Assembly (NCBI GenBank): GCA_963663035.1
Contig: OY760074.1
Coordinates: 224,001 to 288,000, forward strand
Length of the DNA: 64,000 bases
Direction: 5' to 3'
Source: Acidobacteriota bacterium
GTDB lineage: Bacteria > Acidobacteriota > UBA6911 > RPQK01 > JADFOI01
The position numbers were made by a program, and so were the translations under genes. Positions 32,261-45,230 of the stretch are shown here, piece after piece. The notes beneath the pieces are model-generated. The model was not told the DNA's origin, did not search any database, and saw only the letters and a list, made by a program, of their open reading frames with translations. The number at the start of each line of letters is the position of its first letter. Position 1 is the first letter of the stretch.

Positions 32261-34435
32261 ATGATTAGGCGGTATCTTGGTTTAGGCGTCATTCTGTTCA
32301 GCTGGTCTGCGTCCTCTGGACTTGCTGCCCAGGACGGTGCGGTGGAAGGCTCCGCAGAAAAAGTCACCACGGCTCAACGGATCGACACCAAGCTTGTCAT
32401 CGATGGCGAACTTGACGAACCCGAATGGGATCTTGTGGAACCTATCAGCGATTTTGTTCAACAGGACCCGAGCCCAGGCGAGGCCATAACCGAGCGAACC
32501 GAGGTTCGAATTCTCTACGATGATGAATTTCTCTACTTCGGTATTTACTGCTTCGATTCAGAAGGTGAGGAAGGGATTCTTGTCACCAATTTGCAAAGAG
32601 ATTTTCGTCCCTTGGACGGCGATGTGTTTAGCCTGCTTCTGGATACTTTCGATGACGATCGCAACGGATTTCTCTTGAGTACCAACCCCTTCGGAGCCAA
32701 ACGCGACACCCAGGTCGGAGAGGACGGAAGGATGAGTAATGGGGATTGGGATGGGATCTGGCATGTCCAAAGCAAGATCACTGAAAGTGGCTGGCAAGCG
32801 GAAATGGCGATCCCCTTTACGACCCTCCGCTTTCGGAATACAGAAGAGCAGGTCTGGGGTCTGAACCTCCAACGACGCATCCGTCGTAAGAATGAGAGTG
32901 CCCACTGGGCTCCTATTCCACGCCAGTACAGAATCAGTCGCATCTCACGAGCCGGAAGACTGGAGGGTCTCAGCGGGATCCGGCCCGGCCGCAATCTGTA
33001 TGTCAAGCCCTATATCAGCATGCCGGTCACGCGTCGGCAGGATGACGACGTCGATTTTCTTCCCGATGCTGGATTGGACCTGAAGTATGGGCTGAGTTCC
33101 GAGTTGACCCTGGATTTGACGGCCAACACAGACTTCTCACAGGTGGAAGCCGATGATCAGCAGATCAACCTGACTCGATTCAGCCTCTTCTTTCCAGAGA
33201 AGCGGGACTTTTTTCTGGAAAATGCCTCAGCCTTCCAGTTTGGCCCGCCAGGTGGTGGGGGTCTCCTGGGTGGTTTTCGGGACTTGATTCCCTTTTTCAG
33301 CCGACGAATTGGACTTTCCCAGGGCAGTCTCGTTCCGATACTGGGAGGAGCCCGCATGACGGGGAAGGTCGGGGACTACACTGTGGGTCTCCTTTCCCTG
33401 CAGGACGATGATTTCGAGGGGACTCCCTCTACCAACTTCTCGGTGATGCGGGTGCGTCGAGATGTTCTCAGCAACTCATCGATGGGAGGAATTTTTGTCA
33501 ACAAACATGAACTGGACGGTGATTCCAATCGCACCTACGGAGCCGATGTCAATTTCAGCTTCTATAGGTTTCTGGATGTCTCCACTTTCCTACTCAAGAC
33601 CGACACTCCCGAATTCCAGGACAAGGATCTGGCCGGCTTTTTCAGGGCCGCCTGGAGAGGCCCGCTGCTGACGGTCCAGGCAGACCATCTCTCCATTCAA
33701 GAAAACTTCAACGCGGAAGTAGGCTTTATTCCCCGTAAAGACATCCGGAAAACAACGGGAACGTTTGGGATACGGCCGAGGCCCCGCGAGCGGATCCCCT
33801 GGATTCGTGAATTCGAACCCTCCATCTCCATGACCTATCTTACCGACCAGGAAAACGTCCTGCAGACGCGAACCATCAACGGTCGCTTCTCAGTCAGGTT
33901 TCAAAATGAGGAACTGATCTGGTTTGCTGCCCAGTCGCGGTTTGAGCTCTTGACTGAAGACTTCGACATCCGGAGCGATCAGATGATTCCCGCAGGAGGC
34001 TATCAGTTCAATGAGTACACACTTTCGCTCCAAAGTAATGCTAGCCGTATGTTCAGTGGGAGCTTCAGAGCGGTCACGGGAGATTTCTGGGACGGTGAGA
34101 AGGACTCCTATCGTTTCAGCTTTCGCTTTCAACCCATGCCCCAATTTCGATCAGAGATCACCTGGAGCCACGACGATGTCAGGCTGCCCTCAGGGGATTT
34201 TGACACCGAGCTGGTCACCACTCGTCTGAACTATAGCTTCAACCCCAGCATGTTTCTCAATGCCCTGATCCAGTACAACAGCGATCGGAAGGAGCTCCGC
34301 AGCAATATTCGTTTCAATTTGATTCACAAGCCACTGAGCGACTTTTTCCTGGTCTACAACGAGCGGAGATCTTCAACGGGAGACGTAGCGGAACGAGCAC
34401 TCATTGCCAAGGTGACCTACGTCATTGGCCTCTAG
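32261..34435 (+). CDS. DUF5916 / CBM9-like outer-membrane protein
   Basis: Signal peptide, IDGELDEPEW, TEVRILYD, NTDFSQVEAD, FFPEKRDFFLE, FFSRRIG, beta-barrel-type C-terminus. Confidence 0.88.
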   Translation: MIRRYLGLGVILFSWSASSGLAAQDGAVEGSAEKVTTAQRIDTKLVIDGELDEPEWDLVEPISDFVQQDPSPGEAITERTEVRILYDDEFLYFGIYCFDSEGEEGILVTNLQRDFRPLDGDVFSLLLDTFDDDRNGFLLSTNPFGAKRDTQVGEDGRMSNGDWDGIWHVQSKITESGWQAEMAIPFTTLRFRNTEEQVWGLNLQRRIRRKNESAHWAPIPRQYRISRISRAGRLEGLSGIRPGRNLYVKPYISMPVTRRQDDDVDFLPDAGLDLKYGLSSELTLDLTANTDFSQVEADDQQINLTRFSLFFPEKRDFFLENASAFQFGPPGGGGLLGGFRDLIPFFSRRIGLSQGSLVPILGGARMTGKVGDYTVGLLSLQDDDFEGTPSTNFSVMRVRRDVLSNSSMGGIFVNKHELDGDSNRTYGADVNFSFYRFLDVSTFLLKTDTPEFQDKDLAGFFRAAWRGPLLTVQADHLSIQENFNAEVGFIPRKDIRKTTGTFGIRPRPRERIPWIREFEPSISMTYLTDQENVLQTRTINGRFSVRFQNEELIWFAAQSRFELLTEDFDIRSDQMIPAGGYQFNEYTLSLQSNASRMFSGSFRAVTGDFWDGEKDSYRFSFRFQPMPQFRSEITWSHDDVRLPSGDFDTELVTTRLNYSFNPSMFLNALIQYNSDRKELRSNIRFNLIHKPLSDFFLVYNERRSSTGDVAERALIAKVTYVIGL

Positions 34436-34581
34436 CCGGGATTATGCATAAATTTTCTACTGCAGTGCCGCAATCATCCACGCTGACTGCGTTGTGCGAC
34501 CCGCAAGCGGGTACCCCTTCGCACGCCTTGTCATCGCGGCGCCTGCGGCACTTCGTCACGAAAACCTATGCATAATCCCGG
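34436..34581. mobile_element. 146-bp non-autonomous MITE with IS1380-like ends
   Basis: Perfect IR ccgggattatgcata / tatgcataatcccgg, CTAG duplicated (34432-34435 includes the stop codon; 34582-34585). Confidence 0.9.
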
Positions 34582-34597
34582 CTAGTCCATCCTGAGC

Positions 34598-34651
34598 TTT
34601 ACAAAAACTTACAAACTCCTGCTACACATCTAAGCCTGGGGTTCGTACTAT
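34598..34651 (+). promoter_or_regulatory. Putative regulated promoter: TTTAC-N5-CTTAC repeat plus -10 TACTAT
   Basis: tttacaaaaacttacaaa...tactat lies 5 nt before the ATG and there is no SD sequence. Confidence 0.5.
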
Positions 34652-34656
34652 ACAAT

Positions 34657-36360
34657 ATGAAAATGAAGTTATCGGTTGGACTTTTGGCTACCTTGATGGG
34701 GCTGTTGTTGTCTCAGTCCGGGCTTGCCCAGCGGCAACCCGATCCTAATGCAATGTTCGAGCGACTGGACCAGAACAGGGATGGGGTCTTGACACAGGAC
34801 GAGCTTCCCGAGCAGCGCCAGGAATTTTTCGATCTGATGCTGCAAAGAGGAGACATCGACCAGGACGGTCGGCTCACCCAGGAAGAATTCACCGCCAGCC
34901 TGAGCGATGCAAGCGGACGTCCCCAGTTCGGCGGCAGGTCTCAACGGGGACGGGGCGGCGGTCAACCTCGCCCCATGAGGAGGCAGGGCAGGGCTCCCGA
35001 AGAGATATTCGAGCAGCTCGACAGCAACGGGGATGGCACAATCACGGCAGACGAAGTGCCCGAGCAGGCGCAGAGGATTCTGCAGATGGACCGCGATGGT
35101 GACGGCGTGATTACCAGGGAGGAGATCTCTCAAGGCCCTCCCGGTGGCCGCTTTGGACAGCCCCCAGGTATGGCTCCCGGTGGCCCGGGAGAACGAGCTG
35201 AAAGGATGTTCGAGGAGTTGGACAGCAATGGCGACGGACGGGTGACCAAGGAAGAAGTACCCGACAGGATGGAGCAGTTCCTGGAGCGCTTTGACCGCGA
35301 TGGGGACGGCATGGTCACCGAGGATGAAGTCTCCGGCCAACCTTTCCAGGGATCAGGACCCGCGGTCGGTCAATCTTTGCCCGACCTCCGAGTCTATGAC
35401 GCCCAGGGCAGGGAATTCCAGTTGAGCAGCCTGAAGGGGAACTATTCGGTTTTGGTTTTCGGCTGCCTCACCTGACCGCCCTTCTTACGAAACGTCTCCA
35501 GTTTGGAGACTATCTACCGCGATTACGCACCTCAAGGTGTCAACTTTTACTATATCTATAAAACTCTTGCTCATCCTGAGCTGGACGGCTACATCGAGCC
35601 GTTTACGCTCGAGGAGCGGCTGATGCACGTTAAGGAAGCCCAGCGGACACTGGGGAGCGAGATCACCTGGATCAGTGATTCCATGTCCAATGATTTGAGG
35701 CACGCCTTGGGTGATTCGCCCAACTCAGAGTTTGTGGTCGATCCGGCGGGCAAGATAGTGCGTTTGCGCGCCTGGAGTCGACCCGACGAGCTGCGTAAAG
35801 ATCTGGAGCAGCTTGTGGGGCCGGTGGAAAATCCCACCAGGGTGTCCGATCTCAACCTGAAAGTCGAGGCTCCCCCAAAGGTGGCGGCCTCGGGCGTGGT
35901 GCCACGAGTGAGGGTTCCCGGCAGGATGTTGACGGTCAGGATCGAGCCGAAGCCGAGTTCACAGCCCTATTACATGAAGCTGCGAGCTGAAGTGGATCAG
36001 CAGTTTCTGCGGGACGGTGAAGGGACTCTGTATGTTGGCTTTCATCCGGATCCCCTCTACCATGTGCACTGGAATAATTTGGTGGATCCGGTGAAGTATC
36101 AAATCACCACACCTGATGGAGTCACCGTGTCGCCGGCAGCGGGTGAAGGTCCCAAGGTGGAGGAAGCATCGGATATCGATCCGCGTGAGTTCTTAATAGA
36201 TATCAAGAAGACCGGGGATTCCCAGGATCCGTTGCAATTGGCCGTGCGTTATTTTGCCTGCAATGACGAGGAAGGCTGGTGTATAGCAGTCTCGCAAGAG
36301 TACGCGATTTATCTGGAGCCGGATCGCGACGCCGGCAGGACCTTCCGTCGAGGACGGTAA
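34657..36360 (+). CDS. Exported EF-hand / deiodinase-like thioredoxin-fold selenoprotein (Sec at TGA 35473-35475) with C-terminal DsbD-alpha-like domain
   Basis: Two ORFs in the same frame separated by a single TGA, reading FGCLT-U-PPFL. Also IYxxxAHP and DSMSN motifs, six DxD/NxDG EF-hands, and YFACNDEEGWC. Confidence 0.85.
35473..35512 (+). promoter_or_regulatory. Putative bacterial SECIS element
   Basis: Stem gtctcca/tggagac (35494-35510) with a G-first loop GUU, 25 nt after the UGA. Confidence 0.7.
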
Positions 36361-36395
36361 GCCTTAGAACTCACTGCGTTCGCAGACGAAGCGAG

Positions 36396-37388
36396 TTATG
36401 GAAGAACTTTGGCTCGGCCAAGCGTGTTTTTATCGGTCCCGAACCAGATTTCTCCAGAGGAGCTGTCAAACATCATATGGCGCACGGCGCCACCACCACT
36501 TGCAATCTTGGTGACGCTGAAAAACTCTCGTGTCGTCGGATCAAAGCCCACGAACTGGTTGGGATCAGGACCGGTTTCAACGAACCAGAGTCGGTCGCTC
36601 GAGTCCACCGCCATTCCGTAGGGTCTGGAATCAGATCCTCCCGGCGAGACCCATTCTTCCGCCTCCCCAGTGGTGGGGTCCAGATGGCCCAGGGAGCCTC
36701 GAGCATAATCGACATACCAGACCTGGTCATCGGAGGTTACCTGTAAACGGCGAGGGCGGGCATCTTCATTGGGCAAGGTGTACTCTCTCAGCTTCATGGT
36801 TTGCGGATCGACGGTGCCGATCTTGTTGGTTCCCACTTCGGCAATCCAGGGCTGGTTTTTGGAATCGATGACGATCCCATAGGGACGGGCACTGGGAGTT
36901 GTGACCCGAATGAGCTGAATCTCACCTGTGGCAGTGGTCCGCTTGCCGATGAAATTCCCTCCCTGGACGGTAAACCAAATGTCGCCGTTGCCATCAAACA
37001 CCATGGTGTGAGGATCCTTGGCCTCAGGATCGGGCATTGGGTATTTGGCAATTTCCCCGGTCTCAGGATCCAGCCTGCCAATGTGGGCGGCTCGGTTTCC
37101 CGAGTACCAAACATCGCCTTCCTTATCCACAATCACATTGTGCGGGCCGGTGCCGGGTGTCAGGTCAAATTTGGTGAATTCCCCGGTGCTGACATCAAAA
37201 TTCGCTACATAGTGTGATCGTTGTCCCACAAACCAGACCCGACCCTGGCTGTCGACGAATGGATCACGGGGCCGGCTGTCTTCCCATGGAACCTCCCACT
37301 CGAGGATCTCTATCTCCTTCGCGCTGAGATCCGCAACTCCTGCAACCCAAACCAAGCTCACCAGAAAAACTGTAGCCAGCTTCTTCAT
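36396..37388 (-). CDS. Secreted Vgb-lyase-like beta-propeller protein
   Basis: Signal peptide, repeated P.....D..G.(V/I)W(F/Y) blades. Confidence 0.85.
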   Translation of the reverse strand: MKKLATVFLVSLVWVAGVADLSAKEIEILEWEVPWEDSRPRDPFVDSQGRVWFVGQRSHYVANFDVSTGEFTKFDLTPGTGPHNVIVDKEGDVWYSGNRAAHIGRLDPETGEIAKYPMPDPEAKDPHTMVFDGNGDIWFTVQGGNFIGKRTTATGEIQLIRVTTPSARPYGIVIDSKNQPWIAEVGTNKIGTVDPQTMKLREYTLPNEDARPRRLQVTSDDQVWYVDYARGSLGHLDPTTGEAEEWVSPGGSDSRPYGMAVDSSDRLWFVETGPDPNQFVGFDPTTREFFSVTKIASGGGAVRHMMFDSSSGEIWFGTDKNTLGRAKVLP

Positions 37389-37514
37389 TTGTCAAACCTC
37401 CCAGGGAAATGATCGACTTCGTACGCTCCTCTTATTGTAGAGAGTTGCGATTGAGAAGGGAAATCTCATTCTCTCTACGAGCGAAGTGAGTCTCAGGGTA
37501 TACTCTGAGGAATT

Positions 37515-39050
37515 ATTGCTGGAAGTTCTCTTACCTTTGACGAGGATTTTGACGTCATCGTGGTCGGCTACGGCTATGCCGGGGCCATCACGGCCATCGA
37601 AGCGGCCAAGGCCGGAGCCCAGGTCCTGCTCACCGAGAAGATGCCAACCCCCGGCGGCATCTCGATTTGTTCAGGCGGAGCCGTGCGCAGCGCGCACGAT
37701 GCCAATGAGGCCTTTGCTTACCTCAAGGCCACCTGCGGAGGGCGTACCCCTGACGATGTGCTGCGCGTTCTGGCCGACGGTTTCGCGGCTGCCGAGGACT
37801 ATGTTCGCCTGCTTGCCGAGGGCACGGGTGCAGTCATCAGCACCCGCGAGAAGGGAGGTAACTATCCCTTTCCGGGGGTCAACACTTTTTACCACACCAA
37901 CATCGACGATCTGCCGGGCCTGGACGAGAGCTACTACCCGCATGTCTGCGCTCGGCCATCAGCAAACGGCTGGCGCCTCTTCAAGGTTCTGGAGGACAAC
38001 GTCGCCCGCCACAAGAATATCCAGGTTCGGCTGGAAATGCCGGCCAAGAGGCTGATCTCCAACGGAAAGAAGGAAGCGCTGGGCGTGACCTTCGAGACCA
38101 GGGACGGCCCACGACATGTCAAGGCGCGGCGGGGAGTTATCCTGGCCTGCGGTGGCTTCGAGGCCAATGAGGAGATGAAGCGACAGTATTGGGAGAAGGG
38201 GCCGGTGCTCACCGCCACCTCGAGAGCCAACACGGGAGACGGCATCCGCATGGCCCAGGATCTCGGTGCCGAGCTCTGGCACATGTGGCATTACCACGGA
38301 GCTTACGGGTTCAAGCATCCTGACCCCGACTACCCGGTGGCGATCAGGGTCAAGCGGCTGCCCGACTGGATGCCGGGCCGCGAGGCTACGGCCGGCGTCA
38401 AGATGGTCTGGATCCTGGTGGACCAGTACGGGAAAAGGTATATGAACGAATGCACACCGTATACCCATGACACCGCCCACCGCCGGATGGAGTTCTTTGA
38501 CACGGTGACACAGAGCTTCCCGCGCATTCCTTCCCACATGATCTTCGATGAAGAAGGTCGTGACCTCTACCAGATAGGTGCTCCCACCTACAACGAGCTG
38601 GGCATCGAATTCTCCTGGAGCGAGGACAATCTCAGGGAAGTGGAAATAGGGATCCTGAAACGTGCGGATTCGGTGCAGGAACTGGCCCAGATCATCAAGG
38701 CGGAGCCTGCCCTGCTGGAAGCGACCCTCGTCCGCTGGAACGAACTGTGCCAGCGCGGCCAGGACCAGGACTATGGCCGCCCGCCTGGCACCATGATGTC
38801 TGTGAGCACGCCGCCCTTCTACACGGGCCAGCTGTGGCCCGTGGTCTCGAACACCCAGGGAGGGCCCGTGCACAATACAAAGCAACAGATCATGTCTGTC
38901 TACGCTGAGCCGATCCCCCGGCTTTACTCAGCCGGAGAGCTGGGCAGCGCTTTCGGTTACCTGTATCTCTCGGGCGGCAACATCACCGAATGCTTCGTCA
39001 CCGGGCGCATTGCGGGCCGCGAGGCCGCCGCCCTGAGCCCGTGGGGTTAA
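37515..39050 (+). CDS. FAD-dependent oxidoreductase (flavocytochrome c / KstD / TcuA-like FAD_binding_2)
   Basis: DVIVVGYGYAG, GVILACGGF, NTGDG, NTQGG, IPRLYSAGE. Start uncertain (see findings). Confidence 0.88.
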   Translation: MAGSSLTFDEDFDVIVVGYGYAGAITAIEAAKAGAQVLLTEKMPTPGGISICSGGAVRSAHDANEAFAYLKATCGGRTPDDVLRVLADGFAAAEDYVRLLAEGTGAVISTREKGGNYPFPGVNTFYHTNIDDLPGLDESYYPHVCARPSANGWRLFKVLEDNVARHKNIQVRLEMPAKRLISNGKKEALGVTFETRDGPRHVKARRGVILACGGFEANEEMKRQYWEKGPVLTATSRANTGDGIRMAQDLGAELWHMWHYHGAYGFKHPDPDYPVAIRVKRLPDWMPGREATAGVKMVWILVDQYGKRYMNECTPYTHDTAHRRMEFFDTVTQSFPRIPSHMIFDEEGRDLYQIGAPTYNELGIEFSWSEDNLREVEIGILKRADSVQELAQIIKAEPALLEATLVRWNELCQRGQDQDYGRPPGTMMSVSTPPFYTGQLWPVVSNTQGGPVHNTKQQIMSVYAEPIPRLYSAGELGSAFGYLYLSGGNITECFVTGRIAGREAAALSPWG

Positions 39051-39051
39051 G

Positions 39052-39180
39052 CTTGACTAAGGCAGGTAGGGGCGCACAGCCGTGCTCCCAGAAACCTCTG
39101 TTTGTCAACGGGTTATAGGGCGCACGGCTGTGCGCCCCTACACAAGAAAGCTGGGTCAGCCGACTTTTGCGACACCCTAC
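39052..39180. repeat. GTAG-type REP cluster between convergent genes
   Basis: gtaggggcgcacagccgtgc, tagggcgcacggctgtgcgcccctac, and a terminal ccctac. Confidence 0.7.
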
Positions 39181-39966
39181 TCAGCGCGCGGTGGAGCCGT
39201 CCAGGAAGCCAGCCACGGCGGCGTTGAAGGCTTCCGGATTGTCGAGGTTGGACAGGTGCCCAGCCTCGGGAATGACCTCCAGTTTTGCACCGGCGATGCT
39301 ATCGGCCAGGTGTTGAGCGTGGGAGAGGGGTGTCCGGTCGTCCTGCTCACCCACCACCACCAGCGTGGGGACACTCACCAGTCCCAGCAGTGGATTGACG
39401 TCGGTTGTCAGGACCGCCTTGAGCACTTCGAGGTAGCTCTTTTTGTCGAGCAGCGCTATCATCCCGGCCAATTCCTGGCGTGTCTCCCGCGCCGTCGAGG
39501 GGCGAAGAATTTCTCCCGCGGCCTGCTTTCCAAAGTCTTTCATGGTCAGGTAGTGCAGCGCTTCCTGGATTGCGTAGAGGCGGTCTGATGCCAGAGCGGG
39601 ATCAACCTGGGCAGTGCTGTCGGCCAGTACCAGGGAGCGGACACGCTGGGGCCAGCGAGCGTGGAAGGTCAGGCAAATGGATCCGCCCATGGAGAGCCCA
39701 ATCATGTGAGCGGACTCGATGCCCAGGACATCCAGACCGGCCTTGAGATCATCTGCAGCGTTCTCAATAGAGAAGGGACCGTTGCCCGAGGACTGACCGT
39801 GACAGCGGCAATCGAAAGCCACAGCATCAAACCGGTCACCCAGCTCATCGATCAGGCTACGCCAGACTTGGCCACTCGCAGCCAGGTTGTGGACCAACAC
39901 GGTTGCCGGGCCTTTCCCTTCCCGTATGTAGAACAAGACTTCGCCGTTGGCCTCAATCGTGGGCAT
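39181..39966 (-). CDS. Alpha/beta hydrolase (3-oxoadipate enol-lactonase-like)
   Basis: GLSMGG nucleophile elbow, VVVGEQD, AGHLSNL. Confidence 0.88.
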   Translation of the reverse strand: MPTIEANGEVLFYIREGKGPATVLVHNLAASGQVWRSLIDELGDRFDAVAFDCRCHGQSSGNGPFSIENAADDLKAGLDVLGIESAHMIGLSMGGSICLTFHARWPQRVRSLVLADSTAQVDPALASDRLYAIQEALHYLTMKDFGKQAAGEILRPSTARETRQELAGMIALLDKKSYLEVLKAVLTTDVNPLLGLVSVPTLVVVGEQDDRTPLSHAQHLADSIAGAKLEVIPEAGHLSNLDNPEAFNAAVAGFLDGSTAR

Positions 39967-39970
39967 ATCG

Positions 39971-40996
39971 CTAAAAATATTTATCGATCATCTGCGTGAG
40001 ATCTTGCTGCTCCCGGGCGTCCATTTCAAGGACGCCCTCGACCATGCCCTGGATCTCCTCTCCCGGTAAATAATGAACGTAGAGGTTCCGCCGGGCCGTA
40101 GAAGCAATGAAATCCTCACTCTCCAGGCTCTTTTGAAGGGAGGTGTGCAAGAACTCAACTCGTTGGCTGGGGACTCCCGGAGGGCTGATCACGGCGCGCC
40201 CAATTTTCTCCAAGGCCAGTTCCCACTCCAGCCATTTTCGTGCCTCTTCAGTAATATCGGGGAACTCGAATATTGTGGGCACATCTGGGATTTCCTCCAC
40301 ACGAACGTTGTTGACCACCACCAGTGGAGTGAAGAGCCCGGCCTGGAAAGAATCCAATGCCGGGAGGACTGAAACGCAAAAGGCATGGACCTCGTTGCGC
40401 ATGATGGCCAGCTCTACGTCGGATTTCCCACGATACCCCGCTACCAGGCGGACATTTTCAATTTGTAGAGCTTCCGTGAGCAAGACGGTGCGAATGGAGT
40501 ACATGTCGTATTTGCTCATGGTGCCCAGTTTGAAAGCCGGAAGTGTCTTGAAGGTCTCAAGCGATGGGTCTTCAAAGGTGCCTCCCACCGCTAGAGCCCA
40601 GGAGTCGTAACTGAAGCGGCCCAGCCAGTTAAATTGACGAAGGTCATAGCGGGCGGATTCACTTTCCAGGATTTGATTCACGTAGGGTCCTACGGCAGTG
40701 GCGATTCCGATGGTTAACCCATCCTTTCGGGCCGAATTGTAAAGATAATTGAGAGAAAGGAGTCCTCCTGCTCCCGGCATGTTTCTCACGATGACGGTGG
40801 CTCCAGTGTGTTTTGAGAGCTCGGGAGCCATCATGCGGGCCCAGGCATCGTAGCCGCCCCCCGGGGAAGTCGGAACGATGATCTCCAGTACCCTCCCCCT
40901 GTAAAAATCCTCTGGCGCCAGGGCAGTCGAGTCCTGTTGGCAACCCACTTGCAGCAGCACAATAACCAACGCGGCCCATGGAGAAAATCGCATCAA
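39971..40996 (-). CDS. Tripartite tricarboxylate transporter substrate-binding lipoprotein (TctC-like)
   Basis: IIVPTSPGGGYD, NMPGAGG, DGLTIG, VPT, PPGVP. Confidence 0.88.
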   Translation of the reverse strand: MMRFSPWAALVIVLLQVGCQQDSTALAPEDFYRGRVLEIIVPTSPGGGYDAWARMMAPELSKHTGATVIVRNMPGAGGLLSLNYLYNSARKDGLTIGIATAVGPYVNQILESESARYDLRQFNWLGRFSYDSWALAVGGTFEDPSLETFKTLPAFKLGTMSKYDMYSIRTVLLTEALQIENVRLVAGYRGKSDVELAIMRNEVHAFCVSVLPALDSFQAGLFTPLVVVNNVRVEEIPDVPTIFEFPDITEEARKWLEWELALEKIGRAVISPPGVPSQRVEFLHTSLQKSLESEDFIASTARRNLYVHYLPGEEIQGMVEGVLEMDAREQQDLTQMIDKYF

Positions 40997-41009
40997 TGCT
41001 CCAGTTCAA

Positions 41010-42947
41010 TCAGGTTGGGGACCCACCTAGAAGGATTCCCGGATAGAGGGGTACCGAGAGGAGTTGAACAAACAAGAGATGTATTGTGAGAGAAAGGACG
41101 AGCGCAAGGCTCAGAGACAACAACCAACTCTCCTTGTGTATCCGCAAGTAAACAACGGTAAAGACCGGAAGCACAAAAGTAAATCCTACCAGGTAAATTC
41201 CCAACACGAAGCAAAGGATCGATAGGGAAGCCCGGATGGAAGAGCCATATTGACCAGGACGGAGGTCCGATAGGAATTGTGCCCACCTCAAATGCCTGGT
41301 TTGGGAATAAAGTTCTGTGGAGAGAAGGCCGATCATGGGAATTCCAATGACCCACGGTCCCAACATCGCCCGCGGAGAGTATTGAAGAGAAAGGGCCAGC
41401 CCGGACAGAGAAATGGCGAAGAGCAGGAAGGTGAAGGCGAAGCCAAACACCGAAGTGGAGTCTGAAGAAGCGGGCGCCACACGTTGCCTAGTCCTGTGAG
41501 TATAAACGAGTCCGGCCAGGGTCAAAGCGATCAGAACCATCGACACCGGTCTCAGGAAGAAGGTGCTTCCATAGGCGCCTAAGGAGATGTACAGATTGGT
41601 CTCCACGATCTGGCCCAGGATAAAGCCCAGAAGCAGTGCCGGGAGATTGTAGCCAAGGGCTTTCATGGCCCAGCCGAAGGCTCCCAGAAGCAGCATCATG
41701 AAGAGATCTGAAATGTTTGTCTCGGTACTGAAGGCTCCCACCGTGATCAGGATAAGGATCACGGGAAACAGGATAGGAGCCCGCACGAAGGCAACTTTTG
41801 CCAAGCTGTTTGTGAGGAGCAGAATCAGGATACAGGCCAGTACATTGGCTAAAACCAGGGTCGCAATCAGCGAGAAGACGATATCGGCATGATCGGTCAA
41901 CAGAGCGGGCCCAGGTGTCAGACCCACAATTAAGAAGGCTCCCAACAAGATCGCCATCGAGGCACTTCCAGGAATTCCAAAGGCCAAGGTAGGCAAGAGG
42001 GCACCACCTTCCTTGGCATTGTTGGCGCTTTCGGGTGCGATGACTCCTTCGATATGGCCGGAGCCGAATTCCTGGGAATGCTTTGAAGTTTGTTTCGCAT
42101 AACCATAGGCAACAAAAGGCGCCGTCTCGCCGCCCACGCCTGGAATGATTCCCACCACACATCCAATCGCAGAACAGCGCAGGACCAGCCACCAGTGGCT
42201 CAAAGCGCTTCGGATTCCCTCCACTAGATCCGCCTTGATAGCCGTGCCAGGCCTCTCAACCTGGGCCAGCGCTTTGCCTTTTGTGGCCAAATCCAAGAGG
42301 GTCGGAATTGCGAAGAGCCCCAGAACCAGCGGAATCAGTTTGATGCCGTCGTAAAGGTAGAGGCTGCCAAAAGTAAATCGCGGCACCCCGGTCAGTCCCT
42401 GATAGCCCACGAAAGAAAACAAGATACCCACTCCTCCGGAGACCAGCCCTTTCACAGTAGATTCCCTGGAGATGATGGCGATGAAAGAGAGGGCAAGGAT
42501 CCCGAAAAAAAATGTTTCGGGTGAGCCAAAGACCATCACCACGCTGGAGACCACTGGAATCAGGGCAGCCAGCACGAAAGCCCCGAAGCATCCTCCCAGC
42601 ATGGAGGCGACGAAGGCTGCACCCAGGGCCTGGCCGGACTTTCCTTTTTTCGTTAAGGGAAAGCCATCAATGAGGGTGGCTGCATTGGGTGAAGCCCCTG
42701 GAATATTGAGGAGGATGGCGGTCACGGCTCCCCCCGAGTAGACGACCGAGTGAACCGCCAGCAGGAAGGTCAGAGCATGGACGCGCTCCATGTCATAAAT
42801 CAGAGGGGTGAGAATGGCCAGGGCCACAATCCCGCTGAGACCCGGGAGAATTCCAAACAGGAGGCCGATGACCACCCCGATGACAATGAGCACCAGGATA
42901 TCCGGCTGAAAAATGGTGAGTGTTCCTGTGACGATGGCTTCAAGCAT
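41010..42947 (-). CDS. TctA permease with fused C-terminal TctB-like domain
   Basis: GILPGL, ILLNIPG, APESANNAKEGG, GIPGS, plus about 150 extra residues with 4-5 TMs ending VPLYPG. Confidence 0.9.
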   Translation of the reverse strand: MLEAIVTGTLTIFQPDILVLIVIGVVIGLLFGILPGLSGIVALAILTPLIYDMERVHALTFLLAVHSVVYSGGAVTAILLNIPGASPNAATLIDGFPLTKKGKSGQALGAAFVASMLGGCFGAFVLAALIPVVSSVVMVFGSPETFFFGILALSFIAIISRESTVKGLVSGGVGILFSFVGYQGLTGVPRFTFGSLYLYDGIKLIPLVLGLFAIPTLLDLATKGKALAQVERPGTAIKADLVEGIRSALSHWWLVLRCSAIGCVVGIIPGVGGETAPFVAYGYAKQTSKHSQEFGSGHIEGVIAPESANNAKEGGALLPTLAFGIPGSASMAILLGAFLIVGLTPGPALLTDHADIVFSLIATLVLANVLACILILLLTNSLAKVAFVRAPILFPVILILITVGAFSTETNISDLFMMLLLGAFGWAMKALGYNLPALLLGFILGQIVETNLYISLGAYGSTFFLRPVSMVLIALTLAGLVYTHRTRQRVAPASSDSTSVFGFAFTFLLFAISLSGLALSLQYSPRAMLGPWVIGIPMIGLLSTELYSQTRHLRWAQFLSDLRPGQYGSSIRASLSILCFVLGIYLVGFTFVLPVFTVVYLRIHKESWLLSLSLALVLSLTIHLLFVQLLSVPLYPGILLGGSPT

Positions 42948-43034
42948 TTTTCACAGCTGTAGTGCCGTCGATGAGGATTTTGATTCTACAATGAATCAGT
43001 CGGAAGGGAAACGTGGGGACAGGAGAGTGGCTAG

Positions 43035-43056
43035 GCGGGATTATGCCTTATTCCGG
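43035..43056. repeat. Degenerate fused-end MITE palindrome
   Basis: ctag-gcgggattatgccttattccgg-ctac. Confidence 0.55.
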
Positions 43057-43691
43057 CTACACCGGATCAAAGGCCGGTAGTACCGTGCCGGTATCCTCTG
43101 ATCAACAGCACGGACTGACGGCTGGCTTTGCCTCCTGCCTGATAGCCTGTGAAGCTTCTCATTCAGCTGGTAAAAGTCTTCGGCATCTCTAATGCAGAAG
43201 AAGTCCAGTCGCAAGCGTAGACGCGTGTCCACTGGAATCTCGGGTGCAAGGATCTCGATGGAGTTCATAGAGTAGGTCATGACTTCGTTACTAAAGTGGA
43301 CCTGCATGTTGACAAACAAACTGCAAAGGAGAACGAGCATGGCCATGACGTTAAACAGGACATGATGCTTGGCGAATTGGAAAAGTGTTTCTATTGACTC
43401 TCTGGGACTTGTCCTGCTCAGGATGAAGTTGGCGGCCCACAGGCTGACATAGCCGATTGCCACTACCATGAGTGCCAGGATGCTGAGGTAGGCGAACGCA
43501 TTCATCAGTTCAAAGCCTTTGGTTGCTTCTCGGTAGATGGCGTCTCGGAATGAGGGCGAGATTGCCGCCAGAAGTCTTACCGCCCAGTCCATTGGCGAGA
43601 ATAAACCTTGCCAGACACCATAGGCAAGACTACCTAACAAAAGTACGGCCTTGATGCGCCCCAGAATCAAAAGCTTGTGACCCATTTTCAC
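43041..43691 (-). CDS. Hypothetical membrane protein with an IS-derived 3' end (possibly truncated)
   Basis: Three hydrophobic segments, GAGGTG RBS. The last ~33 codons come from a transposase fragment and a MITE palindrome. Confidence 0.55.
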   Translation of the reverse strand: MKMGHKLLILGRIKAVLLLGSLAYGVWQGLFSPMDWAVRLLAAISPSFRDAIYREATKGFELMNAFAYLSILALMVVAIGYVSLWAANFILSRTSPRESIETLFQFAKHHVLFNVMAMLVLLCSLFVNMQVHFSNEVMTYSMNSIEILAPEIPVDTRLRLRLDFFCIRDAEDFYQLNEKLHRLSGRRQSQPSVRAVDQRIPARYYRPLIRCSRNKA

Positions 43692-43772: not shown

Positions 43773-45152
43773 GAGGTTCCGTCAATAAGTGTGTAAATAG
43801 ACATCAGGCGGCTTTCTCCTGGGTGACTGGGTTGACTGGAACTCCATTGACATATTGGGCTCCTTGGTAGACATCCTTCATCAAGTGGGGAGCCTTCAAA
43901 CGGCGAAATCTCTTCTCAGCGACCAGCAGCATCTTCCAGATGACAGCCCGTGCGTTGGCCACTTTCTTGAACCTTCGAGCAGCATCGGTTCGCAGTCGCA
44001 GAGCAGAGAAGGGAGACTCCACTGGGTTGGTAGTCCGCAGATGTTGCCACTGCTGTTTGGGATAGTTGTAAAACGTCACCATCCGCTCCCAGTCCTGGTC
44101 GATCAGATCAGCCGCTGCCTCCAGGCCTCTCTTGCTACACCAATGTTGGAATCGTCCTTTGACTCGCTCGGCTTCCTGCCGTGTTTCTGCATAAGGGATC
44201 TGCCGCAACATCAACAAGGCCGCTTTGTGCCGACTCTTGGGGATCTTGGCCAGCAAGTTGACGATGCGATGATTCCAGCATCTCTGCTCGTCGGCTTCTG
44301 GGAACACGTTGCGCAACGCTCCCCAGATCCCCAGATGCCCGTCAGCGATCACCAGACGGGGTGGGTTCATCCCCCGCTCTTTGAGATCCCGCAGCACTGC
44401 GGACCAGCTCTGGGTCGATTCTCGATAACCACTACTGACGGACACCACCACTTTAGTGCCATCACTTAAAGCGGCGATCACTACCAGAATCACGGCCTTC
44501 TCCTTCTCCAGCCCTGCTTTGATGTACACGCCGTCCGCCCACAAATACACGACTTCCAGATCATCCAGCCGACGGCTCTGCCAGGCCTCCATTTCTCCCT
44601 GCCACTTCTGTTTCAACCGGGCTACGGTGCTGGGGGACAGCGGCGCTTCTTCCCCTAAAAGCCCTCTCAAGGCCAGATCGAAATCCCCCTCGGCCAGACC
44701 ATGTAAATAGAGTTCTGGAATCAAGTCTCGTACCTCTCGCGTTCGCTTGGCAAACAGCGGCAAGACCCGGCTCTCAAAACGCTCTTCCAGATCCCGCACT
44801 CGGGGACGCCGCAGCTTGATCGTTCCGCAACTCATCGTCAGTCGCCGCTCCTTGCCGTAGCCGTTGCGATAGCCACCGGAGGCGTCCACTTCTCGGCGAC
44901 GCTCATTCTTTCTTCGTCCCAGCAGCTGTGTCACTTCATCCTCCAGCAGTTCCTGTACGTAAAACTGGATCTGCTCTCGCACCCACTCTTCCAGCTGTTC
45001 AAAGCAGACTCTTGACTCCACACTGTGATCAATGTTCTTCTTGCTCATGGCGGTGTGACTCCTTCCTTTCGGGCTCTTCCGCCCGGGTTTTTATTTTCAC
45101 CCGGAAGGATAATCACCGCCTGTGCTATTTACACACCTTTTGAGGGTAGCTC
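43773..45152 (-). mobile_element. IS256-family insertion sequence (1380 bp)
   Basis: 28-bp imperfect IRs ending gtgtgtaaatag, 9-bp duplication CGACTGAAA (43764-43772, 45153-45161). Confidence 0.93.
43804..45048 (-). CDS. IS256-family (mutator-type) transposase
   Basis: YRNGY, PRVRD, WADG, IADGH, QRCWNH, RTTNPVE. Confidence 0.95.
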   Translation of the reverse strand: MSKKNIDHSVESRVCFEQLEEWVREQIQFYVQELLEDEVTQLLGRRKNERRREVDASGGYRNGYGKERRLTMSCGTIKLRRPRVRDLEERFESRVLPLFAKRTREVRDLIPELYLHGLAEGDFDLALRGLLGEEAPLSPSTVARLKQKWQGEMEAWQSRRLDDLEVVYLWADGVYIKAGLEKEKAVILVVIAALSDGTKVVVSVSSGYRESTQSWSAVLRDLKERGMNPPRLVIADGHLGIWGALRNVFPEADEQRCWNHRIVNLLAKIPKSRHKAALLMLRQIPYAETRQEAERVKGRFQHWCSKRGLEAAADLIDQDWERMVTFYNYPKQQWQHLRTTNPVESPFSALRLRTDAARRFKKVANARAVIWKMLLVAEKRFRRLKAPHLMKDVYQGAQYVNGVPVNPVTQEKAA

Positions 45153-45230
45153 CGACTGAAATGATCGGTTTGCTAGTCGACGAATCTGAACGGCAGAAGA
45201 GTAGACTGCTGAGTAGCTACCCTTCTGGAC

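What the first reader, a model, noticed from the sequence alone, without database searches (positions are those of the whole stretch)
34657..36360. Hidden exported selenoprotein: six EF-hands + deiodinase-like CxxU fold + DsbD-alpha-like domain
Seen: ORFs 34657..35475 and 35503..36360 are in one frame, separated only by TGA 35473-35475. Read-through gives SVLVFGCLT-U-PPFLRNVSSLE in a 567-aa protein with Sec at residue 273. A 7-bp hairpin with a GUU loop lies 25 nt downstream. Established: iodothyronine deiodinases carry FGSCTUP(P/S)F followed by IYIxEAH and DxMxN. Here IYKTLAHP and DSMSN follow in that order, and the hairpin fits the bacterial SECIS consensus (G at the loop start, immediately 3' of UGA). 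Bacterial deiodinase-like selenoproteins are known. Inference: the combination of signal peptide, three EF-hand pairs, a CxxU redox centre and a C-terminal Ig-like domain with YFACNDEEGWC (cf. DsbD-alpha YQGC...C) suggests a Ca2+-responsive periplasmic selenol reductase or dehalogenase with a built-in electron relay. I do not recognise this architecture as characterised, and standard annotation would split it in two.
Basis: partly seen in the sequence, partly recalled or inferred. Interest (0 to 1): 0.92.

Follow-up and report, generated by a model that had tools for sequence, protein, structure and literature searches.

The report
Exported deiodinase-like selenoprotein with EF-hands
This is a real bacterial gene, usually annotated as two pieces, in which a UGA "stop" encodes selenocysteine; it makes an exported, calcium-binding redox enzyme distantly related to thyroid-hormone deiodinases, and its substrate is still unknown.

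Summary
Window 34657..36360 (+) is one 567-codon frame with a single TGA at 35473-35475 (residue 273, motif FGCLTUPPF).

It is a genuine selenoprotein gene:
- 91 of 92 related loci that cover the column carry TGA there.
- 43 of 60 database proteins that span the column have Cys.
- A hairpin with an invariant loop G follows the UGA and is conserved even at synonymous sites.
- The genome has selA, selB, selD and tRNA-Sec.
- Contigs from 4 independent runs show the same TGA.

Architecture: signal peptide, six EF-hands, a thioredoxin fold whose nearest solved relatives are deiodinases Dio3 and Dio2 (identical T-U-P-P-F), and a C-terminal Ig-like beta-sandwich with a conserved CX6C. The DsbD-alpha likeness of that last domain is weak and inconclusive.

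The conserved unit is the thioredoxin fold plus the sandwich. EF-hands occur in only 27 of 79 orthologues, at either end, so a Ca2+-switch role is not supported.

The most likely function is an envelope selenol/thiol oxidoreductase with two coupled redox centres, recharged by the genome's DsbD. This is inferred, not shown.

I rate it a new variant of the known bacterial deiodinase-like selenoproteins: widespread, unnamed, and truncated in most annotations.

The parts
34657..36360 (+). Complete selenoprotein gene, 567 codons plus a TAA stop, with one in-frame UGA (Sec273)
   Evidence: Orthologues at 51-86% identity span the TGA in one frame.
34657..34728 (+). Predicted Sec-type signal peptide, residues 1-24, with cleavage after GLA
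   Evidence: Read from the sequence. Orthologues have similar hydrophobic N-termini ending in ..A-Q. No predictor was run.
34747..35331 (+). Six canonical EF-hand loops in three pairs, joined by Gly/Pro/Arg-rich linkers (residues about 31-225)
   Evidence: EF-hand_1, 6 stretches, E 2.9e-25; EF-hand_7, 3 stretches. A loop pattern finds 6.
35365..35817 (+). Thioredoxin-fold, deiodinase-like redox domain (residues about 237-387)
35464..35466 (+). Cys270 codon, three residues before Sec. It aligns with the Ser at -3 of the deiodinases.
   Evidence: Nearly invariant in the family. Lost together with the Sec/Cys position in the 13-member clade that lacks all four redox residues.
35473..35475 (+). 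UGA read as selenocysteine (Sec273)
   Evidence: TGA in 91 of 92 related loci covering the column. Cys in 43 of 60 database proteins spanning it. No variant at this place in contigs of 4 runs.
35494..35510 (+). SECIS-like hairpin: 7-bp stem 35494-35500 / 35504-35510 and loop GUU 35501-35503
   Evidence: The loop G is invariant in 77 of 77 sequences and synonymous sites are frozen.
35926..36321 (+). C-terminal Ig-like beta-sandwich domain (residues about 424-555)
   Evidence: AF2 pLDDT 92.5 for the domain alone. Weak DsbD_N hit. Generic Ig-like Foldseek hits that include DsbD-N.
36259..36282 (+). Cys535-x6-Cys542 (YFACNDEEGWC), flanking a beta-hairpin turn
   Evidence: Strands 125-135 and 140-154 of the domain model. 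Nearly invariant C303/C310 in core numbering. Present in all 36 CxxC homologues that cover both centres.

Best explanation
SHOWN: 34657..36360 is one gene for an exported selenoprotein. UGA 35473-35475 is decoded as selenocysteine with the help of the hairpin at 35494-35510. The mature protein has three EF-hand pairs, a thioredoxin-fold domain with a deiodinase-type active site (F-G-C270-L-T-U273-P-P-F ... Y-x-x-x-A-H-P-x-x-D-G-Y), and an Ig-like beta-sandwich carrying Cys535-x6-Cys542. The conserved family unit is the thioredoxin fold plus the sandwich. EF-hands are one of several interchangeable accessory modules. INFERRED (most likely mechanism): it is a cell-envelope selenol/thiol oxidoreductase with two coupled redox centres. 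Sec273 sits at the canonical nucleophile position: it aligns with the first Cys of ResA's CxxC and with the Sec of Dio3. An oxidising substrate oxidises it; a peroxide or an oxidised thiol is most likely, an organohalide is possible. Cys270 resolves the product to a selenylsulfide. The dithiol of the C-terminal sandwich reduces that selenylsulfide. The sandwich is then re-reduced by the periplasmic reducing pathway; the genome encodes one complete DsbD (alpha-beta-gamma). The EF-hands bind Ca2+ constitutively and serve as a spacer or anchoring module rather than a switch.
For: Selenoprotein: TGA sits at one column in 91 of 92 loci that cover it, 79 distinct ORFs. All 15 full-length orthologue rows in the 40 relatives carry TGA. 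In the phylum sample, 14 rows have TGA and 1 has none. 43 of 60 database proteins spanning the column have Cys (CLTC). The hairpin is 91.3% paired over 77 distinct sequences, with an invariant loop G and compensatory changes at 2 pairs. Third-base entropy is 0-0.31 bits at codons +7 to +11, against a mean of 1.32 bits over 186 conserved degenerate columns. The genome has SelA, the SelB wing, tRNA-Sec with anticodon TCA, and a selD that itself carries TGA. Contigs of 4 runs from 4 studies cross the TGA with 0-1 differences, none at the codon. Fold: AF2 pLDDT 93.6 and pTM 0.90. TM normalised to target is 0.72 for Dio3, 0.77 for Dio2 and 0.84 for ResA. The best PDB sequence hit is Dio3, E 5.3e-05. 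13 of 26 family members hit PF00837 at E<=0.01. Coupling of the centres: of 52 proteins covering both, 36 keep both, 14 lack both, 2 lack the CxxC but keep the C-terminal pair, and none keeps the CxxC without the C-terminal pair. The high pTM implies a fixed packing of the two domains. DsbD_N is the only Pfam family that ever hits the sandwich. The genome has a complete DsbD. Precedent: an envelope peroxiredoxin fed by a DsbD-family protein, ScsB to TlpA to PprX (PMC3322552, abstract read).
Against: No biochemical data exist; every functional step is inferred. The co-loss of the two centres rests on only 2 independent losses of the C-terminal pair on the tree, and 2 lineages lost the CxxC while keeping that pair. 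The sandwich's likeness to DsbD-alpha is not specific: Foldseek E >= 2.6e-3, TM 0.28-0.47, and adaptin and NEAT domains score as well. Pfam scores are below the cut-off, the profile search of PDB sequences listed no DsbD among its best 60 hits, and hhalign probability is 6.8%. I could not read model coordinates, so the distance between the two centres is unknown. In an oxidising periplasm the CX6C could simply be a structural disulfide. The peroxiredoxin motif PxxxTxxC is absent (Cys at -3, no Pro at -7). The deiodinase relay Glu aligns with Leu. No conserved gene neighbour points to a pathway; the best neighbour cluster occurs in 17 of 80 loci and is a DUF1501 family. One database protein has Trp at the Sec column (P0138); I think this is TGA read as Trp by the gene caller, but did not verify it.
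Confidence: 0.6

Rival explanations
1. Same selenoprotein, but the C-terminal sandwich is not a relay. Its CX6C is a structural disulfide, and the domain binds a substrate or an envelope component, as the carbohydrate-binding module of DipZ may do. The thioredoxin domain is then reduced directly by DsbD-alpha or by a TlpA-like protein.
For: The top Foldseek hit of the two-domain model is the DipZ ectodomain, a thioredoxin-like domain plus a beta-sandwich. The sandwich alone matches generic Ig-like folds as well as it matches DsbD-N. Two lineages keep the CX6C after losing the CxxC. Structural disulfides are common in the periplasm (general knowledge).
Against: In 14 of the 16 proteins that lack the CxxC, the Cys pair is also gone although the fold is kept. 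A purely structural disulfide would not be expected to depend on the active site. DsbD_N is the only Pfam family to hit the domain, and the hit covers nearly the whole profile. The match to DipZ as a whole is poor (TM 0.39, rmsd about 14 A).
Confidence: 0.22
2. Reductive dehalogenase. The deiodinase-type Sec site attacks the halogen of environmental organo-iodine or organo-bromine compounds, as Dio enzymes attack iodothyronines, and thiols regenerate the selenol.
For: T-U-P-P-F is identical to Dio3, and the Tyr, His-Pro and D-G-aromatic positions are conserved. The deiodinase cores give the highest query-normalised TM, 0.42-0.43 over 176-180 columns. Close orthologues strongly prefer Sec (91 of 92 loci). 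The nearest named relatives are mostly aquatic or marine metagenome-assembled genomes.
Against: Many homologues work with Cys (43 of 60) and Sec/Cys switched repeatedly: 11 state changes on the tree. I recall that deiodination depends strongly on Se, so frequent Cys forms fit it poorly. The relay Glu is not conserved. The authors who found bacterial deiodinase-like proteins expected a general redox role (PMC1088965, passage read). No halogen-related neighbours were found.
Confidence: 0.12
3. Ca2+-gated redox enzyme. Ca2+ occupancy of the EF-hands switches the redox activity, like eukaryotic SELENON.
For: There are six canonical EF-hand loops. EF-hands recur with this core at either end in different lineages. 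There is a precedent for an EF-hand selenoprotein acting as a Ca2+ sensor (PMC7474598, abstract as shown in the search listing).
Against: 52 of 79 orthologous ORFs have no EF-hand by my loop pattern: 37 carry a different C-terminal tail and 15 are core only. Others carry a PQQ-type propeller or an esterase domain. The module is therefore dispensable for the core chemistry. Ca2+ outside the cytoplasm in marine settings is millimolar (general knowledge), so canonical EF-hands would be saturated.
Confidence: 0.05
4. Not a selenoprotein: the TGA is a true stop (two genes or a pseudogene), a sequencing error, or is read as Trp.
For: Gene callers end the ORF at the TGA. One database protein shows Trp at the column (P0138). 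The hairpin is not significant in the single sequence.
Against: Everything listed under the best explanation. In particular: TGA at the same column across at least 79 distinct ORFs with strong protein conservation on both sides, Cys in homologues, complete Sec machinery, and the same TGA in independent assemblies. The downstream ORF would begin inside helix alpha-1 of a confidently folded domain.
Confidence: 0.01

Closest known systems
Bacterial deiodinase-like selenoproteins (Sargasso Sea/GOS family, PF00837; NCBIfam NF038285 'deiodinase family protein')
   Same: A thioredoxin fold with Sec at the deiodinase position, a bacterial SECIS just downstream of the UGA, existing Sec/Cys pairs, and unknown function. 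The same genome has two small paralogues with TGA. Small forms occur in 40 of 401 sampled genomes of the phylum, 39 of them with TGA.
   Different: Scores are below both curated cut-offs: PF00837 21-22.3 vs 27, and NF038285 101.9 vs 250. The motif is C-x-x-U-P-P-F, whereas the reviews list UxxC for the family (PMC13188914 and PMC9312934, tables read); the paralogue L014 has that form, FGSLTUPFC. This protein is exported, carries a fused Ig-like domain with CX6C, and has variable accessory modules. None of these is mentioned in the papers I read: 'EF-hand' occurs 0 times in PMC13188914, PMC9312934 and PMC2398784.
Iodothyronine deiodinases Dio1-3 (animals)
   Same: Best solved-structure relatives by sequence (4tr3, E 5.3e-05) and by coverage of the fold (TM 0.72-0.77). 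TUPPF is identical. The Tyr, A-H-P and D-G-aromatic positions are conserved.
   Different: Cys replaces Ser at -3. The relay Glu is Leu. There is no membrane anchor. The extra domains are specific to this protein. Thyroid hormones are not expected in bacteria (PMC1088965).
DsbD alpha domain and DsbD/ScsB electron relays (DsbD-gamma to alpha to DsbC/CcmG; ScsB to TlpA to PprX)
   Same: An Ig-like sandwich with two Cys across a hairpin near its C-terminal end, placed next to a thioredoxin-fold partner in the envelope. The genome has a full DsbD. The idea of an envelope peroxidase fed by such a relay has a precedent (PMC3322552, abstract).
   Different: The domain is fused to a soluble enzyme rather than to the membrane transporter. 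The spacing is CX6C; I recall CX5C in E. coli DsbD. The similarity is below family thresholds and structurally non-specific.
DipZ (Rv2874) ectodomain: thioredoxin-like domain plus beta-sandwich module (PDB 2hyx, 5cyy)
   Same: It is the top Foldseek hit of the two-domain model (E 3.9e-11) and has the same domain order.
   Different: The overall TM is only 0.39 (rmsd about 14 A), so the domain packing differs. It has no Sec. By its PDB title and my recall, the sandwich there is a carbohydrate-binding module without a redox Cys pair.
Selenoprotein N (SELENON), a eukaryotic ER selenoprotein with an EF-hand
   Same: It combines EF-hand Ca2+ binding with a Sec redox centre in an oxidising compartment (PMC7474598, abstract in the listing).
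   Different: No sequence relationship was found. SELENON has one EF-hand and a different redox fold, and its Ca2+ sensing is shown experimentally. Here the EF-hands are optional across orthologues.

Membership tests
Bacterial selenoprotein (Sec decoding) | In-frame UGA at a column where homologues have Cys, with protein conservation on both sides | tested here: met
   91 of 92 loci have TGA, and 43 of 60 database proteins spanning the column have Cys.
Bacterial selenoprotein (Sec decoding) | Stem-loop shortly downstream of the UGA with a small apical loop containing G (PMC1088965) | tested here: met
   The loop G is invariant in 77 of 77 sequences and 91.3% of cells are paired. Synonymous sites are frozen. 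One stem pair is a C.A mismatch in 37 of 77.
Bacterial selenoprotein (Sec decoding) | selA, selB, selC (tRNA-Sec) and selD in the genome | tested here: met
   458.7 bits; 71.7 bits; 66.1 bits, anticodon TCA; 378.4 bits, with its own TGA.
Bacterial selenoprotein (Sec decoding) | Selenium actually incorporated (75Se labelling or mass spectrometry) | not testable with these tools
   Requires an experiment.
Iodothyronine deiodinase family (Pfam PF00837) | Score above Pfam's gathering cut-off | tested here: not met
   21.0 and 22.3 bits against 27. 13 of 26 relatives hit at E<=0.01, best 1.7e-07.
Iodothyronine deiodinase family (Pfam PF00837) | Active-site segment S/C-x-T-U-P-P/S-F, then Y-x-x-x-A-H-P..D-G-W | tested here: met
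   Alignment to 4tr3: TUPPF identical; Tyr, A-H-P and D-G-aromatic conserved.
Iodothyronine deiodinase family (Pfam PF00837) | Proton-relay Glu before the His (Dio2 Glu160; PMC11592359, passages read) | tested here: not met
   It aligns with Leu (K-T-L-A-H).
Iodothyronine deiodinase family (Pfam PF00837) | Deiodinase catalytic-core fold, including the N-terminal module and the Dio insertion | tested here: inconclusive
   TM 0.72-0.77 over 176-180 columns. The insertion (loop-D) was not examined residue by residue.
NCBIfam NF038285 deiodinase_rel | Score above the curated cut-off of 250 bits | tested here: not met
   101.9 bits. No genome of 401 in the phylum exceeded the cut-off.
Peroxiredoxin (AhpC/TSA, PF00578) | Pfam gathering cut-off | tested here: met
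   31.8 and 33.3 bits against 26.
Peroxiredoxin (AhpC/TSA, PF00578) | PxxxTxxC/U peroxidatic motif (as quoted in PMC13188914) | tested here: not met
   The sequence L-V-F-G-C-L-T-U has Cys at -3 and Leu at -7.
DsbD N-terminal (alpha) domain, PF11412 | Pfam gathering cut-off | tested here: not met
   19.4 and 20.8 bits against 25, though the hit covers profile 10-114 of 119. 2 of 26 relatives hit. 4 of the 120 listed relatives have a precomputed hit.
DsbD N-terminal (alpha) domain, PF11412 | Ig-like sandwich with a redox Cys pair across a hairpin | tested here: inconclusive
   The fold and the Cys positions fit. Foldseek matches to DsbD-N have TM 0.28-0.47 and are no better than those to unrelated Ig-like domains.
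DsbD N-terminal (alpha) domain, PF11412 | Exchanges electrons with a thioredoxin-fold partner | not testable with these tools
Model coordinates are not readable.
EF-hand | Canonical 12-residue loops in pairs, above Pfam cut-offs | tested here: met
   86.4 bits against 25.4, six loops. None has Pro at loop position 2, which I recall as a lanmodulin trait. Ca2+ binding itself was not tested.

The most novel reading that the evidence does not exclude
This would be a large, overlooked family of exported two-centre selenoenzymes. A deiodinase-type Sec site would work in the bacterial envelope on peroxides, or even on natural organohalogens. It would be recharged through a built-in DsbD-alpha-like adaptor domain that plugs the enzyme directly into DsbD-gamma. 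In the lineage of this window, three EF-hand pairs would make the enzyme's position or activity depend on Ca2+, a bacterial counterpart of SELENON.
Probability: 0.12. Interest if true: 0.8.

Novelty: new variant of a known kind. Interest (0 to 1): 0.55.

Why it matters
Bacterial deiodinase-like selenoproteins have been known since 2005, but none has a function. This subfamily is large: 198 representative clusters at E<=1e-30. It is found in metagenome-assembled genomes labelled Acidobacteriota, Planctomycetota, Verrucomicrobiota, Kiritimatiellia, Omnitrophota and Gammaproteobacteria. It is almost always annotated as a truncated 'hypothetical' or 'EF-hand domain-containing' protein, because the gene call starts after the UGA.

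Its second conserved Cys pair sits in a fused Ig-like domain and offers a concrete, testable electron path. Natural Cys forms exist that can be expressed without Sec machinery. If the relay is real, it would be a new way of wiring an envelope redox enzyme to DsbD. It would also give the first handle on what deiodinase-type chemistry does in bacteria.

On the practical side, it is a clean training case for selenoprotein-aware annotation.

Tried and rejected
No complex was predicted.
- align_proteins on 77 read-through ORFs was rejected as too much recoded sequence. The accessory-domain census was done with a loop pattern in a script instead. That census therefore counts only canonical EF-hand loops.
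- Rfam scan of 34300-36700: nothing relevant, one chance-level hit at E 0.93. No generic bacterial SECIS family matched.
- Promoter and terminator scan: counts near the shuffle expectation. One terminator-like site lies at 36408-36422 (+), after the stop; it is not evidence.
- Conserved gene neighbourhood: none. The commonest neighbour clusters occur in 17 of 80 loci (DUF1501) and 13 of 80 loci (PSCyt/PSD1). The window's own neighbours are a DUF5916/CBM9-like protein and a Vgb-lyase-family propeller.
- fold_alignment on 12 sequences showed no compensatory pair. These appeared only with 77 sequences.
- A profile search of PDB sequences with the family alignment listed EF-hand proteins and Dio3, and no DsbD among the best 60 of 406 hits.
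- The alternative C-terminal tail of many orthologues has no Pfam family; one shows a DUF5666 hint at E 0.078.
[quoted passage not shown] Supplements are closed, so I cannot exclude that it is this core architecture.
Full report
**1.
Window 34657..36360 (+) is a single reading frame interrupted only by TGA 35473-35475. The mechanical ORFs 34657..35475 and 35503..36360 are in frame. Read through, it gives 567 residues with the recoded codon at 273 in VLVFGCLT-U-PPFLRNV. A 7-bp hairpin follows: 35494-35500 pairs with 35504-35510, and the loop GUU lies at 35501-35503. On this sequence alone the fold is unremarkable (z -1.74; 13 of 200 shuffles fold as well).

Pfam finds:
- six EF-hand loops in three pairs;
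- AhpC/TSA over residues 237-367 (31.8 bits, cut-off 26);
- T4_deiodinase below its cut-off (21.0 vs 27);
- DsbD_N below its cut-off (19.4 vs 25, covering profile 10-114 of 119).

NCBIfam gives only NF038285, 'deiodinase family protein', at 101.9 bits against a cut-off of 250. None of the selenoprotein-specific NCBIfam models appears at E<=0.1.

**2. The UGA is a selenocysteine codon.**

*Orthologues.* In 40 related genomes, all 15 full-length matches (51-86% identity over the 335-residue core) contain TGA. Thirteen of them have exactly one TGA and no other stop. G024 and G013:C269 carry further stops. Translating the loci shows the TGA always at G-C-L-T-U-P-P-F.

*All fetched loci.* 93 loci were fetched (some genomes twice), giving 79 distinct ORFs. 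Of these loci, 92 cover the column: 91 have TGA and one (L116) has a Cys codon. L115 does not cover the column.

*Phylum sample.* 16 of 401 genomes, G000 included, have the gene at E<=1e-40. Outside G000, 14 rows carry TGA and one carries none.

*Protein databases.* Of 270 relatives from the two protein searches, 210 are gene calls that begin downstream of the column. Of the 60 that span the column, 43 have Cys (CLTC), 16 have another residue and one has Trp. The Trp case (P0138, FGCLTWPPF) looks like TGA read as Trp by a gene caller; I could not check it.

*Hairpin across relatives.* Over 77 distinct sequences, 91.3% of cells are paired, against at most 56.6% when the partners are slid. The first loop base G is invariant. 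U-A becomes U-G in 24 sequences and A-U becomes G-U in 28. Two pairs show compensatory changes (5 cells). Only 1 of 500 shuffles reaches the observed pairing. One central pair is a C.A mismatch in 37 of 77 sequences, those with Pro instead of Ser, so the stem is imperfect in half the family.

*Synonymous sites.* Independent of any structure model, third-base entropy at codons +7 to +11 is 0-0.31 bits. The mean over 186 conserved degenerate columns is 1.32 bits.

*Machinery and sequencing error.* The genome has SelA, SelB, a tRNA-Sec with anticodon TCA, and a selD that itself contains TGA. Contigs from 4 runs of 4 studies cross the codon with 0-1 differences, none at 35473-35475; one of those runs may be the source sample. 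A sequencing error, a true stop, two genes and Trp recoding are all effectively excluded.

**3. Anatomy.**
The N-terminus is a typical signal peptide. This is read from the sequence, with similar N-termini in orthologues; no predictor was run.

*Two-domain model.* An AlphaFold2 model of residues 233-567, built with 26 aligned relatives, is confident (pLDDT 93.6, pTM 0.90). It shows a thioredoxin fold, a linker with lower confidence, and a beta-sandwich.

*Thioredoxin domain.* Foldseek matches include ResA-type reductases (TM normalised to target 0.84 over about 150 columns). The longest coverage is by mouse Dio3 and Dio2 catalytic cores (TM 0.72 and 0.77 over 176-180 columns). The whole model's top hit is the DipZ ectodomain, a thioredoxin-like domain plus a sandwich, but only at TM 0.39. 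By sequence the best solved relative is Dio3 (E 5.3e-05). U aligns with the Sec-to-Cys position, T-U-P-P-F is identical, and Tyr, A-H-P and D-G-aromatic are conserved. The relay Glu is Leu, and the Ser at -3 is Cys270. Against ResA, the U falls on the first, nucleophilic Cys of CxxC. So Sec273 occupies the canonical attacking position, and Cys270 lies upstream of the classical CxxC register.

*Sandwich domain.* Modelled alone it is confident (pLDDT 92.5). It has only weak, generic Ig-like neighbours (E >= 2.6e-3). DsbD N-terminal domains appear at ranks 10, 17, 19, 21 and 27 with TM 0.28-0.47, no better than adaptin ears or NEAT domains. Its two Cys (535 and 542) flank a hairpin turn. A low-probability profile alignment puts RYFACNDEEGWC on RYQACNDQ--VC of the genome's own DsbD-alpha. 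DsbD_N is the only Pfam family that ever hits this region. I therefore rate 'DsbD-alpha-like' as plausible but unproven.

**4. What is conserved and what is accessory.**
Across 79 distinct Sec-form ORFs, canonical EF-hand loops are:
- N-terminal only in 7 (the window's close relatives);
- C-terminal only in 17;
- at both ends in 3;
- absent in 52. Of these, 37 have a different Gly/Arg-rich tail plus a small domain without a Pfam family, and 15 are core only.

Other relatives carry a PQQ-type propeller (L101), an esterase domain (P0156) or two tandem cores (P0002). The invariant unit is the thioredoxin fold plus the sandwich. This argues against Ca2+ control as the essence of the protein. It favours a targeting, spacing or anchoring role for the add-ons; that is inference.

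**5. Coupling of the two Cys/Sec centres.**

| State, among 52 database proteins covering both centres | Count |
|---|---|
| CxxC and the C-terminal pair both kept | 36 |
| Both lacking | 14 |
| CxxC lacking, C-terminal pair kept | 2 |
| CxxC kept, C-terminal pair lacking | 0 |

The tree has 129 sequences and 335 columns (FastTree LG+gamma, midpoint root). On it the C-terminal pair was lost only twice: once in a 13-member clade with support 1.0, and once in P0043. Both times the active site was lost too. The active site was lost 4 times in all, and Sec/Cys/other changed 11 times. The association is real but rests on few independent events. Rows were limited to Sec forms from genome loci and database proteins spanning both centres; the 210 truncated gene calls were left out.

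**6. Context.**
No gene neighbour is conserved. The genome encodes one complete DsbD of 604 aa, with DsbD_N, DsbD_TM and a thioredoxin domain. A periplasmic reducing pathway is therefore available.

**7. Most likely mechanism (inferred).**
This is an envelope selenol/thiol oxidoreductase.
1. Sec273 is oxidised by the substrate.
2. Cys270 resolves the product to a selenylsulfide.
3. The Cys535/Cys542 dithiol of the sandwich reduces it.
4. DsbD recharges the sandwich.

The precedent is the ScsB to TlpA to PprX envelope peroxide pathway (PMC3322552, abstract read). The rivals, scored separately in the report, are:
- the sandwich binds something and its CX6C is structural;
- the enzyme is a dehalogenase using deiodinase chemistry;
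- the EF-hands gate activity, as in SELENON (PMC7474598, seen only as an abstract in the search listing).

**8. Comparison with what is known.**
Bacterial deiodinase-like selenoproteins and their Cys homologues were described from the Sargasso Sea and GOS data, with a general redox function suggested (PMC1088965 and PMC2398784, passages read). Reviews list the family under PF00837 with a UxxC motif (PMC9312934; PMC13188914, Table 1 read in parts 1 and 2 of section 7). The window's genome has such a small form, FGSLTUPFC, and another, GAITUPPY. Small forms occur in 40 of 401 sampled genomes of the phylum.

The present subfamily differs in four ways: its C-x-x-U-P-P-F motif, its export, the fused Cys-bearing sandwich and its accessory modules. 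None of the four papers' main texts mentions EF-hands. Searches for selenoprotein + EF-hand + DsbD and for a DsbD/Ig-like/thioredoxin-like/peroxiredoxin fusion found no description of it.

Two caveats apply. First, the N-terminal half of the NF038285 profile aligns weakly (31.7 bits) with the EF-hand region, so an EF-hand plus deiodinase-like architecture may already be modelled there; I did not verify this. [quoted passage not shown]

**9. Verdict.**
This is a genuine, widespread, systematically mis-annotated selenoprotein. It is a new variant of a known kind rather than a new kind. Its interest is moderate to high for selenoprotein and envelope-redox specialists.

The tallies include genomes flagged unpublished (G017, G063, G182). 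No specific claim rests on them.

Noticed in passing
window 33832-43325; second copy G000:C1:3585231-3594683 (-): A 9.5-kb stretch that includes the selenoprotein gene occurs a second time. The copy is 100% identical and inverted, sits at the very end of the single contig, and abuts an IS-like repeat. It is either a real IS-mediated duplication or an assembly artefact at the contig end.
   Followed up: partly
window about 43773-45153: A repeat of about 1380 bp is present in at least 20 copies at about 100% identity around the genome. It is presumably an active insertion sequence.
   Followed up: no
window about 34429-34590: A repeat of about 155 bp lies directly upstream of the selenoprotein start. 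It occurs at least 20 times in the genome at 94-98% identity, in both orientations, and is weakly self-complementary. It looks like a MITE or REP element sitting in the likely promoter region.
   Followed up: no
G000:C1:3280484-3281053 (+) = L013; G000:C1:1374015-1374470 (-) = L014: Two further small deiodinase-like selenoprotein genes in the same genome have in-frame TGA. Their motifs are VFGAITUPPY and FGSLTUPFC; the latter is the UxxC form listed in reviews.
   Followed up: partly
G000:C1:3111136-3112059 (-): The genome's selD gene itself contains an in-frame TGA, so it is a Sec-containing SelD.
   Followed up: no
L119 (G000:C1:639885-643523) and L002: The only DsbD_TM gene of the genome, a full alpha-beta-gamma DsbD of 604 aa, lies about 2 kb from selB.
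   Followed up: partly
P0097, P0098, P0106, P0108, P0111, P0113-P0115, P0119, P0124, P0127, P0129, P0087: A clade of long homologues (about 470-830 aa) carries a large N-terminal repeat region. They have lost both the CxxC and the C-terminal Cys pair but keep the fold and C-terminal EF-hands. They are presumably a non-redox derivative. The N-terminal region was not scanned.
   Followed up: partly
P0002 (808 aa); L101:4552-6000; P0156: Other architectures exist around the same core: two tandem cores in one protein, an N-terminal PQQ/BamB-type beta-propeller, and an N-terminal esterase/lipase domain.
   Followed up: partly
L047, L050, L055, L057, L062, L078, L081 and others, C-terminal about 100-150 aa: 37 of 79 orthologues replace EF-hands with a Gly/Arg-rich linker plus a small conserved domain (...RNGQ.A.L.DL...) that has no Pfam family.
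   Followed up: partly
G024:C1:1199764-1200768 (L026); G005:C2:66717-67712 (L021); L116: Some copies look broken. L026 has 2 TGA and 2 TAA, L021 is split over frames, and in the single Cys-codon locus L116 the frame read stops matching the family just after the active site. They may be pseudogenes or assembly errors.
   Followed up: no
window 35455-35740: In four metagenome runs, contigs of other organisms that are at least 90% alike pile up on the stretch around the UGA/SECIS and the following conserved codons, where depth rises several-fold. This shows how conserved the nucleotides are among co-occurring relatives.
   Followed up: no
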